From: Octopus vulgaris
Lineage: Eukaryota
Direction: 5' to 3'
Assembly (NCBI GenBank): GCA_951406725.2
Contig: OX597814.1
Coordinates: 89,838,001-89,902,000, forward strand
Length of the DNA stretch: 64,000 nt
In this document: piece by piece, positions 1 to 47,661 of the stretch
Layout: each line of letters opens with the position of its first letter
How positions within the stretch are numbered: position 1 is the first letter of the stretch
Made by a program: the position numbers and the translations under genes
The notes under the pieces: generated by a model
Seen by the model: the letters and a program-made list of their open reading frames with translations, nothing else
The model's database searches: none
What the model was told of the DNA's origin: nothing

Positions 1-1
1 G

Positions 2-1351
2 ATGTGTGTCTGTGTGTTTATAGTATATATCTGTGGTGATGGTGGTGTCTTTTTTAATTACCATTATATCCAGGAATGGTAATTTGGTACTACTCATCTC
101 CTTTGTAAATTTGAGAGATGGGTGTAGGTTGTTCAGGAGGATATTGAACTCTTCCAGAGTATTTAGAGATTCTGTCCAGATTATGAAACAGTCGTCTAGG
201 TATCTCTTCCATGCCTTTTCAATATACTTTCTAAATCCAGTGCCATAGTTTACCTCCACCTCTTGGTAGAGTTGTTCTTCTAAGTATCCCATTACAGAGT
301 TGGCGTAAACGGGAGCAAACCTCGTTCCCATCGCCGTGCCTCTAATTTGGATGTAATTCTTTCCATTGAAGAAGAATGTGTTATTTTCTAGAATAAGTTT
401 GACTGTGTCTAATATAAATGGCACTGTGAATCTGCTGGGAATCACTTCTCTATGTTTTTCTAACCAGTATTTAATCGCCTTTATTCCTAAATCGTGTGGA
501 ATATTGGTGTAGAGGCTTACCACATCAAAACTTAGCAAAACTGAATTTGTTTCTGTTGTTTTGGGAAGATGGGACAGGAAGTCGATGTCATCCCTGATGA
601 AACTTGGTATGTAAGTACATAGTGGTTTCAAAACAATGTCAATAAAATTGCTTAGACGGTGTGTAGGGCATGCTGGACCAGCTATAATAGGTCTAAGTTT
701 TAGGTCTTTTGGATGTAATAATTTTATGTACTCACTTTCTTGTTCTTTTACTGCCTGTTGAATGTTTTTTGATTTGTGTATTTTTGGTAAGCCGTAGAAG
801 TTGCTGGGTTTTGGTTCAAAATTGGTGATGTAGTCTTTTTCATTATCCGTAAGTGAGTTGTGGTGTGTTGAAATCAGGTTGTTGATCTTTTTCATGATGT
901 GGTGGTCTATATTTGCGGGTATTTCACAATAGAAGGTTGTATCCTTCAGTTGGTCTTCAACCAAATCCTTATAGTATTCGGTATCCATAATAACAGTTGC
1001 ACCACCTTTATCTGCTTGTTTAATTATTATTGTTTGATCGTTTTGTATACGTTTACATGCAGACAACTCTGATTTGCTAATGTTTGGCCTAACATTGGTA
1101 TTGCGTCTAAGGGGAAATTTAGACAGGATATCAATGTATTGGTCAAGGTAGTTATTTCTTCCTTTTGGTGGGGTGAAATTTGATTTATTCCTTACTAGGG
1201 ATTCATCAATCTCATTACTTTTGTTAGCGAAGAATTCTACAAGTCGTAATTTTCGACAGAATTTTTGGATATCCTCCTTTAATTCTTGGTGGTTGGCTGT
1301 TGGTGTAGGTGTGAATTTCAGTCCTTTTAAAAGTTCTATTGCCACCACCAT
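2..1351 (-). CDS. Penelope-like retroelement reverse transcriptase, open frame running off the left edge (partial, ~450 aa)
   Basis: Manual minus-strand translation has no stop from 1351 to 2 and contains PLE RT motifs: LKGLKFTPTP, IKQADKGGATVIMD, FYGLPKIHK, LRPIIAGPACPT, LSFDVVSLYTNIP, QIRGTAMGTRFAPVYAN, WKRYLDDCFIIW, LPFLDIMV, DIYYKHTDTH. Absent from the ORF track because no stop lies inside the window. Confidence 0.95.
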   Translation of the reverse strand, partial: MVVAIELLKGLKFTPTPTANHQELKEDIQKFCRKLRLVEFFANKSNEIDESLVRNKSNFTPPKGRNNYLDQYIDILSKFPLRRNTNVRPNISKSELSACKRIQNDQTIIIKQADKGGATVIMDTEYYKDLVEDQLKDTTFYCEIPANIDHHIMKKINNLISTHHNSLTDNEKDYITNFEPKPSNFYGLPKIHKSKNIQQAVKEQESEYIKLLHPKDLKLRPIIAGPACPTHRLSNFIDIVLKPLCTYIPSFIRDDIDFLSHLPKTTETNSVLLSFDVVSLYTNIPHDLGIKAIKYWLEKHREVIPSRFTVPFILDTVKLILENNTFFFNGKNYIQIRGTAMGTRFAPVYANSVMGYLEEQLYQEVEVNYGTGFRKYIEKAWKRYLDDCFIIWTESLNTLEEFNILLNNLHPSLKFTKEMSSTKLPFLDIMVIKKDTTITTDIYYKHTDTH

Positions 1352-1532
1352 CACCACTAGCAACAATAATTAAGGTGCTGACAATGATGATGATGACAAT
1401 TGAAATATAAAAATATAAAAATCTCTGACAAAGGATATTTACAACATTTCTAAAAATAACCCAACAATTGCTGCTTCGGCCAGGGTCAAGATACAGGACT
1501 CTTGACCTGTCCAACAAAGCGTGATGCCTAAA

Positions 1533-1646
1533 CCAATCAGCTCAACCAACCAATCAGCTTAAGTAATTGAGTGATACTACACACTGATTGGTCAGAATAC
1601 AGTTTGCAAAACCTAGCACTCTGGAGCCTACCCAGCTGTATTTATA
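1533..1646 (+). promoter_or_regulatory. Promoter-like cluster in the putative pLTR
   Basis: CCAAT at 1533 and 1550 (both CCAATCAGC), reverse ATTGG at 1587, TATTTATA at 1639-1646, about 65 bp upstream of the hammerhead. Motif match only. Confidence 0.3.
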
Positions 1647-1709
1647 GCACAGAATCACTCATCTTGCTACAGTCAAAAATTGTGAAGTATGACTGTCAAC
1701 ACTACTACA

Positions 1710-1754
1710 TGAACCCGAAGATTGCAGAATTCAATGCATGAAAGTACTAGTTCA
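1710..1754 (+). ncRNA. Minimal type I hammerhead ribozyme (U4C core variant)
   Basis: TGAAC-CCGAAGA-t-TGCA-gaattcaa-TGCA-t-GAAA-GTAC-TA-GTTCA: stem I TGAAC/GTTCA, stem II TGCA/TGCA, palindromic GTAC stem III as in PLE hammerheads. Confidence 0.7.
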
Positions 1755-2609
1755 ATCAGAATGAATATTTAACATTCTACTATTTCATTTTATTTTATTC
1801 AATTATAATATATTATCTTATAATATATCATTATAAGATTGTAAATAAAACGTGAAAATCAGACAAGGTTGGAATTCTTTTTATTAATATATATATATAT
1901 ATATATACACGCAAACACACGCACATAGATATATCCCTGTCTGTAAATATATACTTATATCTATCTATATTGACAGTGGAATATATTAGCGTATGGGTAT
2001 ATACATAAATATAATACTTTGGTAGCTAAAATATCTCAACCGCTAACCTACATTCATACTAATGAAATTTCGATGTCCTGAACACCTATATTCGGCAGTG
2101 AGCGTGGAAAATTTAAGCGTGATACCTGAACTGAGTCTCTCATCAAGAGAACCTCATACTGGTCTTTCTTGTTGTGTCAGCCTGATGATAACTGCTCTAA
2201 AGTTTCAGTGTTAGTCTCAGTGCAGCTTACCTTTCCAAATTTGACTACAAATGAAATGAGAAGAATACTTACATATGGCAGATAAGAGTTGTATTCATCA
2301 AGAAGTTTCTCCAACCAAAAGGACGCAATACAAAAATGTTACCCGAGTAAATAAATTTATATCTTTTAACCCCTTATCAAATATTTTAATTCACTATATT
2401 ACCACTGATCTCTAATTACTGTACCGATATTTAGAAATTAGTATTTGTCGACGTTGTAATAACGCAGTAATTAACAAAATATACAAGATGTTACGATGGT
2501 TAACGTCAGGAAATAGAATTTTATAGATAAGAAATAATTCAGAGCAATCATTTGTATGATATATTTTACGCACGTTTTTCTCAACATCCTCCTGTTATGC
2601 ACGTGGACA

Positions 2610-6731: not shown

Positions 6732-7103
6732 TCTTTATATATAAAAGAGAGGTTGTGTGCTGTCTGTCTCCTACGATTTAGATTCCTAACTACTACCAAA
6801 AGCGGGTATCTTATAGTCGTGATTCATATCGAGCCCTTCTGGGTATTAGCGTGCGTCTACGATGAGTCTACGATTAAAAAAAATTTACCATCAATTTTCC
6901 CCATTTTTAATGCATTTTTGGCATATATAAGGGAAGTAACTCTCTAAAAATTTATTATTAAATCTCAGAACGTAAAAAGCTACAGTAACACCCCACCCTT
7001 TGTGGTTAGCCATATTGAGATGGCTATTATACTTTACATCTCTAAAAATGCTTATATAGTTATTTCCCTTTCAAACCCGAGCAACGCCGGGCGATACTGC
7101 TAG
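6732..7103 (+). mobile_element. Non-autonomous Helitron
   Basis: 5' TC after A; 3' hairpin CCCGAGCAACGCCGGG, then an 8-nt spacer and CTAG before T; no TSD. Same terminus at 20210 and 51692. Confidence 0.75.
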
Positions 7104-10949: not shown

Positions 10950-11658
10950 CGGGATCTTTACCCTTTGACCTACAGATTTAAAAAATACTTTTTTGTAACT
11001 AAACACTTTCAAACTTCGGACACTGGTAGATGTGTCGTATAAAACATCTTTTACTCTTAGCATTTTTGAGGAATACTTATATTTAGGAAGTTAGTTCACG
11101 TTAAAGTTCTCGTATTTCGGTAATTTCAACCAATCAATGACGCGATAAAATTACTGAATAAAATTACTGCCGTTGTTTGTCAACAACAGCTATCGGCGGT
11201 GTATCTTTCGTTTGTCACTGTTATTTATGACATCGTTCGTGCGTTTGTACTGGTTTTAAGGTTTCAGAGTTCGGGTTAGGGTTTTAGGTTTAGGGTTAGG
11301 GTTTTAAGGTTAGGGTTAGGGTTTTAGAGTTAGGGTTTTAGACTTAGTGTTAGGGTTTTAGGGTTAGGATTAGGGTTGTTATAAATAACAGTGACAAACG
11401 AAATATACACAACCGGAAGTTCTTGTTGTCAAACAACAGCAGTAACTTTTTTCAGCTGAATACACGTCATTGATTGGTTGAAATTACCGAAATAGGACAA
11501 ATTTAACGTGAAATATCTTCCTAAATATAAGTTTTTCTCAAAATTGCTAAGAGTAAAATATGTTTTATATGACACAATCTACCAGTGTCCGAAGTTTGAA
11601 AGTGTTTAGTTACAAAAAAATTATTTTTTAAATCTGTAGGTCAAAAGGTAAAGCTCCT
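10950..11658. mobile_element. Foldback/MITE with ~280-bp inverted arms around a degenerate TTAGGG tract
   Basis: Arms ~10950-11232 and ~11377-11658 are reverse complements (e.g. GTAACTAAACACTTTCAAACTTCGGACACTGGTAGAT); ATTAAT flanks both sides; the centre holds about nine exact TTAGGG plus variants. Confidence 0.9.
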
Positions 11659-41689: not shown

Positions 41690-41870
41690 AAGAAACACAG
41701 GTGCGGTGTGTTCATCACTGAAAGTCTTTTTGCTTCCTCTTTCCTTCTTTTTCTCTCTTTCTTCCATTTCTTTTCTTTGAGCTATATTTAGAATACAAAT
41801 TGTACTGTCTTCCTTTTCTTTCCAAAACATTCAATTTTGGAGAGAATTTTTTGATGAAATGTAGTTCCGT
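41690..41870 (-). mobile_element. PLE 3'-end fragment (family of 22545-23100); another piece at ~42960-43030
   Basis: Reverse complement matches GAACTACATTTCATCAAAAAATTCTCTCCAAAATTGAATGTTT ([14 protein letters not shown]) and the downstream purine-rich tract. Confidence 0.75.
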
Positions 41871-41974: not shown

Positions 41975-42012
<38 letters not shown>

Positions 42013-42219
42013 GATAAATCTCAGAGCGAGTTATAAACAGTAGCGGTAACACATCGTGACGCATATTTGCCATTTGAATATTGCTAACCCCTAAGGGTGG
42101 ATGCTACTGTAGTTTGTAGCCCCAGGAAGATATCTCCTCCAGCTGGCTATAGACACACTATCTGTGTCCTCTCAGTATTTGTGAAGGGGAGTCATCCTCC
42201 CCGTCTTCAACTCATGATA

Positions 42220-42264
42220 CACACGGACCCGAGTTTCAAGGTGTTTACCTTTCATCAGCGTGTG
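42220..42264 (-). ncRNA. Type I hammerhead ribozyme, canonical core (monomer 1)
   Basis: CACACG-CUGAUGA-AAGGU-aaac-ACCUU-GAAA-C-ucgg-G-UC|-CGUGUG; all stems pair; predicted cut between 42226 and 42225. Confidence 0.92.
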
Positions 42265-42571
42265 ACAATCATGGTTGTCGACGAGAAGTCAGCTCCCTTC
42301 ACAAATACATATACTTTTTCCAGTGTCGATTGACACTGATATTGAAAAAGTGAAATCAAACAATGATAAATCTCAGAGCGAGTTATAAACAGTAGCGGTA
42401 ACACATCGTGACGCATATTTGCCATTTGAATATGGCTAACCCCTAAGGGTGGATGCTACTGTAGTTTGTAGCCCCAGGAAGATATCTCCTCCAGCTGGCT
42501 ATAGACACACTATCTGTGTCCTCTCAGTATTTGTGAAGGGGAGTCATCCTCCCCGTCTTCAACTCATGATA

Positions 42572-42616
42572 CACACGGACCCGAGTTTCAAGGTGTTTAC
42601 CTTTCATCAGCGTGTG
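42572..42616 (-). ncRNA. Type I hammerhead ribozyme, canonical core (monomer 2)
   Basis: Identical to 42220-42264, shifted by 352 bp. Confidence 0.92.
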
Positions 42617-43587
42617 ACAATCATGGTTGTCGACGAGAACTCAGCTCCCTTCACAAATATATATACTTTTTCCAGTGTCGATAGACACTGATATTGAAAA
42701 AGTGATATCAAACAATGATAAATCTCAGAGCGAGTTATAAACAGTAGCAGTGTGTGTATCATGAGTTGAAGACGGGGAGGATGACTCCCCTTCACAAATA
42801 CTGAGAGGACACAGATAGTGTGTCTATAGCCAGCTGGAGGAGATATCTTCCTGGGGCTACAAACTACAGTAGCATCCTCCCTTAGAGGTTACCCATATTC
42901 AAATGGCAAATATGCGTCACGATATATATATATATATACCTGAACATTTGTAGAGATGAACCATATTTGGAATAAAAAATTGCAATTCTCCACTTTACCC
43001 TCAAACATTCAATTTTGGAGAGAATACCTTGATGGAGCGTACGTGTGTGTGCATGTGTGTGTGTGTATTTGGGAACATGTCCATGTTTTACTGTGTAACT
43101 TCAATCACGCTTCTTTCAATTTCATGTTTGTTTTTTGAATTAGAGAACATTACTATAACACTTACAAACTAGAAAAACACGCAATGCTCAGAACAAGTGC
43201 AGCTTAAGTTACTGTTGCTGTCATTATAGGTCACAGATACTGTATTGCAATTTACAAAGCTATTACTGTTAGGTGTTCCTTTCAAAGCACTTAAAAGAAG
43301 CTTAACTACATATATAAAAAAACAATAAAATATTCGTTTCTAGCTCATTAACAATCTAAGAGATATTCCCTTTTTCCTTGTTTTTATTTTTACATTTCTG
43401 TTTTCTTTTTACTTGAGCACATCTTCGAAAAGTCTAAGCTTCCTTCGTAAAGTTAAACTGGGTTATATTCCGCTAATATTCTATAAGATAAAAACGATCA
43501 GCGAATCGTAGAGGGGGATAGATTATAAATTATGTAACTCTGCATCGTGTGATGCGTAGAACACCTGTCTTATTCCACTAACAGTTG

Positions 43588-45030: not shown

Positions 45031-46619
45031 TGACCATGTTCCAACCTGTGTCCTGGTGTCTCTGGTCTGGGGCTAAACATTGTTGGTTGCAGTTTTTTGT
45101 ATTAGTTGTCTGTGATGTTGTATGGGATTGGTTCGGAGGAATGGTGGTATTGTTGCCTCAGTTTGTTATGTGTGTGTGTGTCTATGGATGTTTTGGTTAG
45201 TGATGTATGTGGTATATTTTTGTTTGGAATTTCTTATATGCGGGGTGTTTCTTGACCTAGTGTTATTTTGTGCTGTTCTTCGGTGGGGCCCAGTAATTTT
45301 GGGTCATGGGGTAGTAGAGCCTGGTATGTGGTGTGCTTCTTATCCTAGTGTTATTTTGTGTTGTTATGGGGTGGTTATGCCTGGTATTGGGACGTTATTG
45401 GTGTGTGCTTTTTCTGGTATATGGGTGATCTTTAGATTTGGTGTAATCTATTTCACAAATGCGTTTACTCTCAACTTCTTCACTGTTTAGATTTGGTGGT
45501 TCAAAAATGGTGGTGGTTTCTATTTATGGAATATGGAGGATAATGTGGGTGTTGTTGTTTACTAAGTGGTTAAAACTGGGGACGATTTGTGCGTTGTTCA
45601 GTTTTTGTTTGTTATTTATATATTTTTTTCTTCAGAAAAGGATTATCAGCACTGACTTGTTTGATTCTTTGGAAGTAATCATTGCTTTTTTTCTCAGCGT
45701 AGGAGAGACTTCCTTTTCACAGACTTTCTTCCAAAGATTTATGGTGTTTTCGAGGAATTATCCGTCGGTTTGTTTGTTTCTAAACCAAATCATGTTAAAT
45801 TAAAAAAACCTAGTCATTCCCAACATTTTTGATTATCTCTCTTATACCGAAAACATCTATGATTATCTTCCCCTATCTGGTACTCTCATACTTCCCTTCA
45901 TAGCGGGGAGACGACAATATAGGTAGAGAAATTTGAGAAATTTGAAAAGAAAATAGGAAACGGGTTATTTCTTCCCAAACAATGTTATCTTACAGAAAAT
46001 TTTATAACATTTTCCTAACATAACGATTTAAATATACTCTTTAACCATATAACACAAGTCTTCTGTTGTTTTTACACTTTATTTTGTCTTATATATATAT
46101 ATATATATATATAATTCAACTAAGGTAGTAGTTGAATAATATTCTTAAAGCCGCAATTTACTCACTCGCAGCATATTTAAGAGATTTGAAGCTAATTAAA
46201 TTCTTAACTAAATGGAAGACCGTTAACATTTTTGAAGAGGACTGGTCCCTAGATACATGTTGGCATTACAAAAATTGAGATTTGGTCCAGTAGAAAAAGG
46301 TTTTCATCAAAATTTGTAGCGACGTCATAGGAGTGTAGGTAACGTCACCAGTCAAGTTTAGATATAAATATCTTCTTGTATTTTAAAAGCAAAATATATT
46401 TATCTTAGCTTCAATGATAGGCGAAAGCGTGAAGAATTTCATAGTTTTTGTCTCATTCAACAAAATTTTGTATCCAAAACGTTGTGATGTAAAATATCAT
46501 GACAAAATACAAGTAAGGCAAAAAATTGGATTTAAGTATATTTTTTTTTATTTTAAAAGTAAATTATATTTTAATTAAGCTTAAATGACAGAGCTCAATT
46601 TTGGGAATTTCATGATACC

Positions 46620-47070
46620 AATCGCATGCAATCAATTTCTAAAAGAAAATATTTATGATTGTTTGTTTTTCGAATGTGAGGGTCATAATATAATTATACA
46701 CTTTTTTATTCTTAGGGGACTTTTTATATATGTCACCGGCATCATTGAGATAAGAAAAAAATTATCAACGACACCGTGAGGAATTTCATAGTTTTCTTCC
46801 TATTAAGTTGAATATTTTTTATTGCTTTTGTATATCAATTAACAATCTCATGCAATGAAGTCCTAAAAGAAAAAAGTTATGAGTGTTTGTTTCTCAAATT
46901 TGAGAGTGATAATATATTTCTATACCTTTTTATGGATTTACTTCTATAAAGGGACTTTTCATATATATCAACGGCGTCATTGAGGTAAGGAAAAAATTAT
47001 CAACGACATCATCAGGAATTTCACAGTTTTCGTCTCATTAAATCATATATTTTTTATTGTATTAATATTT
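46620..47070. repeat. Diverged ~230-bp tandem repeat
   Basis: ATC(G/T)CATGCAAT...AAAAAATTATCAACGACA...GGAATTTCA(T/C)AGTTTTC at 46621-46797 and 46845-47031; partial third unit near 46430. Confidence 0.75.
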
Positions 47071-47661
47071 CAATTAAAAAATAATATTTACACACTCATA
47101 AATCTTTCACATTCATAATTTCATTGATAATTAATCTACTTTCGTATTTTAATCAGTTGCTTGTTAATTGTTCCTTTTTCCACTTTTCATTTGTCACTCT
47201 TCCTACTAGGCTTGTTACTTTATAGGTCATAATACGACTTCTGCAATTTATAAAAAGTTTTTTTATATCCTGAAAATATTCTTTATACTAGAATTAGTTT
47301 CTTAATTTGAATTAATTAAGAATATATTTATAAGATGAATTATCACACTATATCTTTTGCGCGTTTTTTTTTGTTGTAGTTTGTTTCAATATAATAATTA
47401 TATATTAACACAAAACAAGCACTCAATGTTTTTATAATAAATATCGCTTGTATAGTTTAATTTTAATGTTACTCATTATTGGTGGGGTAGAATTGAATCC
47501 GGGGCTTGGGATTAGTAAAAGGGATAATAATAATAGGGGAGGTAATCAATTGGATGAAGAAGAAATGAAGAAAAGAAAACATGCTGAAGCTGAAGCTAAA
47601 TATAGAAGAAAAATTGACACGTTATTAATTAGCATAATAGCGTAGCCTGGAAAAAACACGG

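What the first reader, a model, noticed from the sequence alone, without database searches (positions are those of the whole stretch)
42749..42923. Inverted partial copy begins at the predicted ribozyme cleavage site
Seen: 42751-42923 is the reverse complement of 42053-42225. Its first bases (TGTGTGTATCATGAG) match the predicted 3' cleavage product (CGUGUGUAUCAUGAG) except C>T at the first base, which is a CpG position. The upstream GUC and the rest of the ribozyme are missing. Inference: this is a genomic footprint of reverse transcription reaching the 5' end of a self-cleaved RNA, i.e. in vivo evidence for cleavage. The direct-plus-inverted layout matches PLE-type integration.
Basis: partly seen in the sequence, partly recalled or inferred. 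Interest (0 to 1): 0.72.

Follow-up and report, generated by a model that had tools for sequence, protein, structure and literature searches.

The report
Ribozyme repeat with Penelope-type inverted insertion
The inverted piece is the ordinary second arm of a small jumping repeat that carries a predicted self-cutting RNA and was likely pasted in by a Penelope-type enzyme; its end beside the predicted cut site is likely chance, because the family's other copies end all along the repeat and nearly all run straight through that site.

Summary
The inverted copy is real (42752-42923, 172 nt, 98%). It faces 2.1 tandem 352-nt units carrying a predicted type I hammerhead, inside (AT)n. It starts one base after the predicted cut, and T42751 fits the direct arm better.

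In 165 unbiased arms, 2 end at the cut ±1 (1.1 expected), and ends are flat along the unit (p 0.40). Of 1431 genomic passes, at most about 0.7% stop at the cut base.

What recurs is the outer ends: arms start at two fixed points 43-46 nt apart, one per side (79 of 81). This is the known Penelope 'tail', also seen in an intact RT+GIY-YIG Penelope-like element in this genome (9 of 10).

The two arms share variants (512/540), copy overlapping sequence and tend to stop near each other, and arm lengths are geometric. This fits two RTs on one uncut, probably circular RNA.

Verdict: new member of the known non-LTR retrozymes; not in vivo evidence of cleavage. The scan reached the same reading on other repeat families here, and had already noted the LINE that targets such repeats (20 of 20 junctions at one base here).

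The parts
41978..42009 (.). (AT)n microsatellite, left target flank
42010..42751 (+). Direct arm (arm A): starts at unit position 1, runs 2 units + 38 nt (742 nt). The + strand is the inferred cDNA strand; the ribozyme RNA reads on the - strand
42010..42052 (+). 43-nt 'tail': sequence between start site A (position 1, or 350 in other copies) and start site B (position 44); present only at this end of the insertion
   Evidence: tail concept from PMC11167929 and PMC8557442
42010..42361 (-). 352-nt unit 1 (5 differences from unit 2)
42362..42713 (-). 352-nt unit 2
42213..42273 (-). Predicted type I hammerhead 1, core intact, predicted cut between 42226 and 42225
42565..42625 (-). Predicted type I hammerhead 2, core intact, predicted cut between 42578 and 42577
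42749..42752 (.). Head-to-head junction: arm A ends at unit position 38 (G>A at CpG 42749), arm B ends at unit position 215; blunt, no microhomology
42752..42923 (+). Inverted arm (arm B): starts at unit position 44 at the right flank and ends at 215; reads as RNA sense on +
42924..42938 (.). (AT)n microsatellite, right target flank

Best explanation
This is one two-armed insertion of a protein-free 352-nt repeat with a predicted hammerhead ribozyme (a non-LTR retrozyme) into an (AT)n tract, likely made by a Penelope-like reverse transcriptase-endonuclease, and the inverted arm's stop one base from the predicted cut site is likely a coincidence. Shown by the sequences: arms start at two fixed unit positions next to (AT)n, one of each per insertion; their inner ends are spread along the unit; most arms that reach the ribozyme site read through it. 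Inferred mechanism: the enzyme, probably a dimer, cuts both strands of (AT)n. One 3' end primes cDNA at site A (position 1 or 350) and the other at site B (position 44). Both copy an RNA that has no fixed 5' end, most simply the ligated circle and otherwise an uncut multimer. They drop off at a roughly constant rate (about 0.6% per nt in the young copies), and the two cDNA 3' ends are joined head to head. Here arm A made 2.1 rounds through two uncut ribozyme sites and arm B stopped after 172 nt. The ribozyme's likely role lies earlier, in cutting transcripts into unit-length RNA that is then circularised.
For: Starts: of 256 outer arms from 168 unique elements, 112 start at site A, 129 at site B and 15 elsewhere. 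(AT)n flanks 227 of 241 A/B arms and 0 of 15 others. 79 of 81 copies with both arms from A or B are A+B. Ends: 165 unbiased arms, 2 at 215-217 against 1.13 expected; flat over 16 bins, p 0.40. Genome-wide, 1431 passes carry the anchor at 195-213. In the first 100 of 137 filtered rows, 56 ends spread over 213-231, at most 6 at 216 and 7 at 221 (one search read by eye; first 30 rows re-called by script with the same 18 ends, within 0-2 nt; p 0.26). Arm lengths are geometric across the cut site and the unit length: longer than 352 nt, 22 observed against 22.2; longer than 525 nt, 7 against 7.8. Same template or source: arms agree at 512 of 540 diagnostic bases (shuffles 0.67, max 0.78) and share 30 of 214 rarer variants (shuffles 1.7). 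Arm A runs past start B in 49 of 58. Inner ends lie within 15 nt of each other in 15 of 55 against 5.7 (P 0.0001). Enzyme class: a young 775-aa RT+GIY-YIG element is in this genome, with a minimal hammerhead, (AT)n targets and two 3' ends 33 nt apart, one of each in 9 of 10 head-to-head pairs. PMC11167929 shows in vitro two internal start sites, extension of both strands, and no need for ribozyme cleavage.
Against: Circularity and cleavage are not shown for this family, and a long uncut multimer would give the same picture. The mobilising element is not identified: the one Penelope-like family examined has no real sequence similarity to the repeat, and its selected arms are kilobases long. A small run-off component cannot be excluded: up to 6 of 56 ends at exactly 216 against 2.9 flat (p 0.07). 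In one copy (L236/L237) both arms end at or within 2 nt of the cut. A broad excess of ends at 270-279 (about 21 of 40, by eye, window chosen after looking) may mark some linear primary transcripts. This locus does not show the end-to-end coupling (offset 175). Sharing of variants between arms could also come from one dominant source locus at a time or from conversion between inverted arms.
Confidence: 0.82

Rival explanations
1. One reading: arm B ran off the 5'-OH end of an RNA that had cut itself, either a cleaved multimer or a circle that re-opened during copying, losing one base on joining. Such events would be a small minority in the family.
For: The end is 1 nt from the predicted cut. 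Up to 6 of 56 genome-wide ends sit at 216 (p 0.07). L236/L237 has both arms ending at 216-218 with a scrambled templated linker. The logic holds for R2 elements, whose 5' junction types follow the ribozyme cut site (PMC3774820, abstract).
Against: No significant excess in either sample. About 1.3% of two-armed copies should look like this by chance. Arm A of the same insertion read through two such sites. The apparent 216 ends are followed by T, which equals a common GUA subfamily variant, so several may end at 217-221.
Confidence: 0.12
2. Classical L1-type twin priming on one linear multimeric RNA: the first cDNA starts at the RNA 3' end and stops where the second primer sits (position 44), and the second runs to the 5' end.
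For: At this locus arm A ends at 38, 6 nt short of start B (modulo one unit), and arm B ends near the cut. L016 has a similar 38/220 junction.
Against: Family-wide, ends at 33-43 are not enriched (5 against 5.3), and in L016 the arm ending at 38 is arm B. The second start is fixed, not variable. Arms overlap in template in 49 of 58. There is no poly(A), and single arms start at either site. The twin-priming model itself is recalled (Ostertag and Kazazian 2001), not read here.
Confidence: 0.04
3. The junction is an assembly artefact or a later rearrangement of a plain tandem array.
For: Inverted repeats beside microsatellites are hard to assemble.
Against: The inverted arm has 3-4 private differences from both direct units and begins at the family's standard site B next to (AT)n. 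The same layout occurs in 79 other or equivalent copies.
Confidence: 0.02

Closest known systems
Metazoan non-LTR retrozymes (Cervera and de la Pena 2020, PMC7229834; Li, Clavereau and Pollet 2026, 10.64898/2026.07.22.740005)
   Same: Short (about 350-nt) non-coding tandem units, each with a type I hammerhead and short stem III; dispersed monomers to trimers; co-occur with Penelope-like elements; two intact ribozymes in tandem meet Li et al.'s 'active' definition.
   Different: Circular RNA and cleavage were shown for coral, mussel and axolotl but not here. In the parts I read, those papers propose Penelope mobilisation from shared ribozymes, co-occurrence and pLTR relationship, and do not map insertion ends. 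No pLTR homology to an autonomous element was found here (one family tested).
EN+ Penelope-like elements: Poseidon of Anolis (Frangieh et al. 2024, PMC11167929); Neptune/Nematis/Naiad layouts (Craig et al. 2021, PMC8557442)
   Same: Two internal start sites giving a tail at one end only; inverted 5'-truncated copy; AT-rich or (TA)n target; both strands extended; uncut RNA as template.
   Different: No ORF. The tail is 43-46 nt rather than 30-40. In vitro no strand difference in start site was seen, whereas genomic copies here pair one A with one B almost without exception.
R2 retrotransposons with HDV-like ribozymes (Eickbush et al. 2013, PMC3774820, abstract only)
   Different: Here the ends do not track the cut site; nearly all cDNAs read through it.

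Membership tests
Non-LTR retrozyme | Short non-coding tandem unit (about 170-400 nt) | tested here: met
   352-nt period, 2.1 copies, 98%; no ORF of 150 aa or more over the element
Non-LTR retrozyme | Type I hammerhead core in each unit | tested here: met
   CUGAUGA, GAAA, GUC and stems I-III in both full units. Core nearly invariant over about 105-120 passes except U4 (9 of 105 C) and N17 (C 89, A 26, U 5, G 0 of 120; set enriched for variants). Stem I pair 204/264 kept in 96 of 99 (few independent events). No Rfam match at gathering score
Non-LTR retrozyme | Dispersed multicopy family without LTR, PBS or PPT layout | tested here: met
   2633 candidates, 1431 anchor matches; ends abut (AT)n; PBS/PPT not searched for separately
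Non-LTR retrozyme | Self-cleavage | not testable with these tools
   Needs in vitro transcription of monomer and dimer; stem III is near-palindromic, so dimer-dependent cleavage is likely (inference from PMC7229834)
Non-LTR retrozyme | Expressed as circular RNA | not testable with these tools
   Only assembled contigs were offered, no raw RNA reads
Penelope-type insertion | Two internal start sites, tail at one end only | tested here: met
   Sites 1/350 and 44; 79 of 81 A+B
Penelope-type insertion | Inverted 5'-truncated copy adjoining the 5' end | tested here: met
   93 two-armed elements among 168
Penelope-type insertion | AT-rich or (TA)n target | tested here: met
   227 of 241 A/B arms
Penelope-type insertion | Identified autonomous partner sharing pLTR sequence | tested here: inconclusive
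   One young RT+GIY-YIG family has the same behaviour but no similarity beyond 20-nt AT-rich matches; other families among 6384 candidates were not examined
Autonomous Penelope-like element | RT + GIY-YIG ORF | tested here: not met
   No ORF in the element
Ribozyme-defined 5' junction (R2-like footprint) | Genomic 5' ends pile up at the cut site | tested here: not met

The most novel reading that the evidence does not exclude
Each insertion is written by the two subunits of one Penelope dimer on one small RNA circle: each subunit has its own start site, the rear one chases the front one and displaces its cDNA, and both tend to stop close together. That would explain the strict one-A-one-B rule, the shared variants, the overlap of the arms, the geometric lengths with no barrier at the ribozyme, and the coupled inner ends with A usually 0-27 nt behind B. 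It would be genomic evidence for rolling-circle reverse transcription of a circular RNA by a eukaryotic retrotransposon and for an asymmetric Penelope dimer.
Probability: 0.35. Interest if true: 0.62.

Novelty: new member of a known kind. Interest (0 to 1): 0.3.

Why it matters
As posed, the finding does not give in vivo evidence of ribozyme cleavage; it is one draw from a flat distribution. The family-level result has modest value. It shows on genomic ends that an animal retrozyme carries the Penelope footprint that had been proposed from co-occurrence. It shows that the ribozyme site is no barrier to copying, as the circular-template model predicts. And it gives two quantitative rules (one A plus one B start; coupled stops) that the existing in vitro Penelope assay can test. 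The scan has drawn the same picture on other repeat families in this genome, so the gain here is a further example and a clean negative.

Tried and rejected
1) Spike of ends at the cut: tested three ways (10 and 19; 42, 43, 63, 66), not found.

2) Idea that variation at N17 is a reverse-transcription error scar at a ligation junction: rejected, since variants are subfamily-linked and agree within 29 of 30 elements.

3) Arm A blocked at start B (twin priming): 5 ends against 5.3. Simultaneous stop with equal lengths (offset -43): 3 against 4.0.

4) RNA-editing signature suggested by an earlier scan note: 3 of 15 shared rare variants are A>G, no enrichment.

5) Sharp pile of ends at the LINE target or putative start site (275): 1 of about 40 after setting aside 5 LINE junctions; only a broad excess at 270-279 (first 100 of 365 rows, by eye).

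6) Expression: no RNA holder listed. Contigs of four runs were laid; none of the pieces shown bridged the 42751/42752 junction and contigs cannot show RNA ends, so this says nothing either way.

7) Rfam: no match. Earlier scan notes by sequence: none. ESM Atlas gave only generic endonuclease names for the LINE.

8) Partner search: one Penelope-like family, no similarity.

9) How many copies genome-wide have both arms ending at the cut was not counted.

10) Paper searches listed no paper mapping retrozyme insertion ends, describing an octopus retrozyme or describing a retrozyme-targeting LINE. I saw listings only for most hits; subscription journals, Repbase reports and the supplements of PMC11167929 (Fig. 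S2), PMC7229834 (Fig. S9) and the bioRxiv preprint were not seen and may bear on novelty.

Full report
OBSERVATION. The element lies between two (AT)n tracts: 42010-42751 holds two 352-nt units plus 38 nt, and 42752-42923 is the reverse complement of unit positions 44-215 (172 nt, 98%). Unit position p is window 42009+p. The minus strand of each full unit has a complete type I hammerhead layout with the predicted cut between positions 217 and 216. Rfam found nothing at gathering score, and the lowest-energy fold is not the core fold, so the ribozyme is a prediction from motif and family conservation. That parse needs no C>T and no untemplated bases, so the inverted arm most simply starts at +2 of the predicted 3' product.

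FAMILY. The window's genome is 2.8 Gb in 227 contigs; size and microsatellite load look like an octopus (recalled, not checked). The unit has 2633 candidates. I fetched loci by patterns at the two recurrent outer ends and near the cut. From 197 loci came 168 unique elements and 256 outer arms (one probable duplicate pair, L153/L154, survived the filter). 112 arms start at site A (71 at position 1, 28 at 350), 129 at site B (117 at 44) and 15 elsewhere. (AT)n flanks 105 of 112, 122 of 129 and 0 of 15. Of 93 two-armed elements, 79 are A+B, 1 A+A, 1 B+B and 12 involve an 'other' end. In the two sets anchored on one start, all 59 classified partners were of the other class (41 and 18).

For an unbiased sample I used all 81 matches and the first 30 of 294: 165 arms, mean stop rate 0.61% per nt. 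Ends at 215-217: 2 against 1.13 (P 0.31), one being this locus. At 211-221: 6 against 4.2. 65 passes reach 213 and 60 reach 222. Sixteen bins are compatible with a flat rate (chi-square 15.8, df 15, p 0.40). For power I used a genome-wide anchor at 195-213: 1431 matches, of which 137 lack the expected G at 232. In the first 100 rows, read by eye, 56 were ends, 1 a duplicate (dropped) and 43 substitutions, small indels, internal deletions or later ends. Ends per position 213-231: 2,2,5,6,0,2,4,5,7,1,4,4,2,3,3,1,2,0,3, counting ambiguous cases in favour of 216. That is at most 11 of 56 at 215-217 (p 0.26) and 6 at 216 (p 0.07), or about 0.7% of passes at most, assuming the filter catches four in five broken copies. 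A script re-called the first 30 rows: the same 18 ends and 12 read-throughs, positions within 0-2 nt, with two of my 216 calls moving to 217-218 and one to 214, and this locus moving from 215 to 216. The chance that a two-armed copy has an end within 1 nt of the cut is about 1.3%.

RESULTS AGAINST MY READING. The 216 count is twice the flat value, though not significant. One copy, L236/L237, has both arms ending at the cut. Ends near the LINE target at 270-279 look about twofold enriched by eye. So a few percent of templates may be linear, and this copy could be one of them; it cannot be told from a single junction.

MECHANISM. Arm lengths follow a geometric law across the cut and across one unit: longer than 216 nt, 49 against 50.7; longer than 352, 22 against 22.2; longer than 704, 1 against 2.6. 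The two arms of an element agree at 512 of 540 subfamily-diagnostic bases in 71 pairs (shuffles mean 0.67, max 0.78) and share 30 of 214 rarer variants (shuffles 1.7). Arm A runs past start B in 49 of 58. Inner ends are coupled: within 15 nt in 15 of 55 against 5.7 (P 0.0001), Spearman 0.44, A usually slightly behind B; this locus is not among them. N17 varies only among C, A and U (89, 26, 5 of 120; no G), is subfamily-linked and agrees within 29 of 30 elements. This fits the NUH cleavage rule (recalled) but rests on few independent changes. Shown: fixed paired starts, (AT)n target, read-through, shared variants, coupled ends. Inferred: Penelope enzyme, dimer, one RNA, circle.

ENZYME CLASS. 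A fragment next to one locus led to a young element with a 775-aa frame: RVT_1 at E 2e-6 (below cut-off) and GIY-YIG above cut-off, a minimal hammerhead in its 3' UTR, (AT)n targets, and two 3' ends 33 nt apart. 9 of 10 head-to-head pairs, chosen for long frames, have one of each end. A copy lies at window 1-1890. It shares no real similarity with the repeat, so it is a positive control for the footprint and a candidate, not a proven partner.

WHAT IS KNOWN. Frangieh et al. 2024 (PMC11167929; parts 1-2 of 4 read) show two adjacent internal start sites that equal the genomic tail, nicking and extension of both strands at AT-rich DNA, a predicted dimer, and no need for ribozyme cleavage. Craig et al. 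2021 (PMC8557442; passages) describe the inverted 5'-truncated copy, the 30-40-bp tail at one end and (TA)n targeting. Cervera and de la Pena 2020 (PMC7229834; passages and parts 3-4 of 6) define animal retrozymes, show circles and propose Penelope mobilisation. Li et al. 2026 (10.64898/2026.07.22.740005; parts 1-3 of 5) support a Penelope origin. Eickbush et al. 2013 (PMC3774820; abstract) is the case where junction types follow a ribozyme cut. Earlier scan notes reached the same Penelope-footprint reading on 359-, 360-, 485- and 490-nt families and already describe the retrozyme-targeting LINE. My reading was fixed before I saw them; they supplied two leads, RNA edits and a start site at the LINE target, tested.

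SIDE RESULT. A 5.3-kb endonuclease-RT LINE inserts at one base of this repeat in 20 of 20 junctions. Tx1-clade elements that target other transposons are known (PMC4494074; passages and section 15).

VERDICT. Observation partly confirmed. The cleavage-footprint inference is not supported; the Penelope-type layout is supported and explained. New member of a known kind; interest 0.3. The boldest reading not excluded, one dimer with two start sites chasing round one RNA circle, has probability about 0.35 and would merit about 0.6.

Noticed in passing
L198-L202, L205-L224 (e.g. G000:C16:26.102-26.108 Mb): A 5.3-kb LINE (ORF1 zinc knuckle; endonuclease, RT, zf-RVT; nearest solved protein human L1 ORF2p) inserts site-specifically into this repeat. 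In 20 of 20 3' junctions the LINE is followed by unit position 275 or its equivalent in diverged copies (272 and about 275 in two), just upstream of the ribozyme, which stays intact in 19; the twentieth runs into a second LINE copy. Five full-length copies have about 18-23-bp target duplications. Hosts are 74-98% identical to the unit while LINEs are 92-99% alike. Tx1-clade behaviour (PMC4494074, passages and section 15); clade not tested by tree. The scan already reported such LINEs and suggested the site is an snRNA-type start.
   Followed up: partly
window 1-1890: Young head-to-head copy of the autonomous Penelope-like family: ORF part on the minus strand (1-1328, 99.7% to a reference copy) joined to a 3' UTR arm with a minimal hammerhead at about 1715 that ends at the short start site before (AT)n.
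   Followed up: partly
L275-L290: Very young 775-aa RT+GIY-YIG element with a CX4CxxC linker (Neptune/Nematis-like by the description in PMC8557442; no tree). Many of the 150 scored hits have open 775-aa frames. Two 3' ends 33 nt apart; 9 of 10 inverted pairs are long+short.
   Followed up: partly
L236/L237 (G000:C2:201,423,1xx-201,423,5xx): Copy in which both arms end at or within 2 nt of the predicted cut, joined by a 37-nt scrambled templated linker: the best candidate for true run-off from a cleaved RNA.
   Followed up: partly
unit positions 270-279 (window 42279-42288): Broad excess of inner ends (about 21 of 40 by eye in 10 of 30 positions) around the LINE target site; could mark heterogeneous 5' ends of linear primary transcripts.
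   Followed up: partly
L038:2057-2491: Older related hammerhead tandem of about 357 nt, 66-72% identical to this unit, ending at the same site A before (AT)n.
   Followed up: no
window 6977-7030: 54-nt, 81% match to unit positions 54-106 inside another repeat.
   Followed up: no
window 11256-11377: Degenerate interstitial (TTAGGG)n-like tract.
   Followed up: no
window 41825-41863 and 43003-43041: 39-nt direct repeat (85%) on either side of the insertion, 1178 nt apart; too far out to be a target duplication.
   Followed up: no
window 46413-47080: Degenerate 235-nt tandem (about 80%).
   Followed up: no
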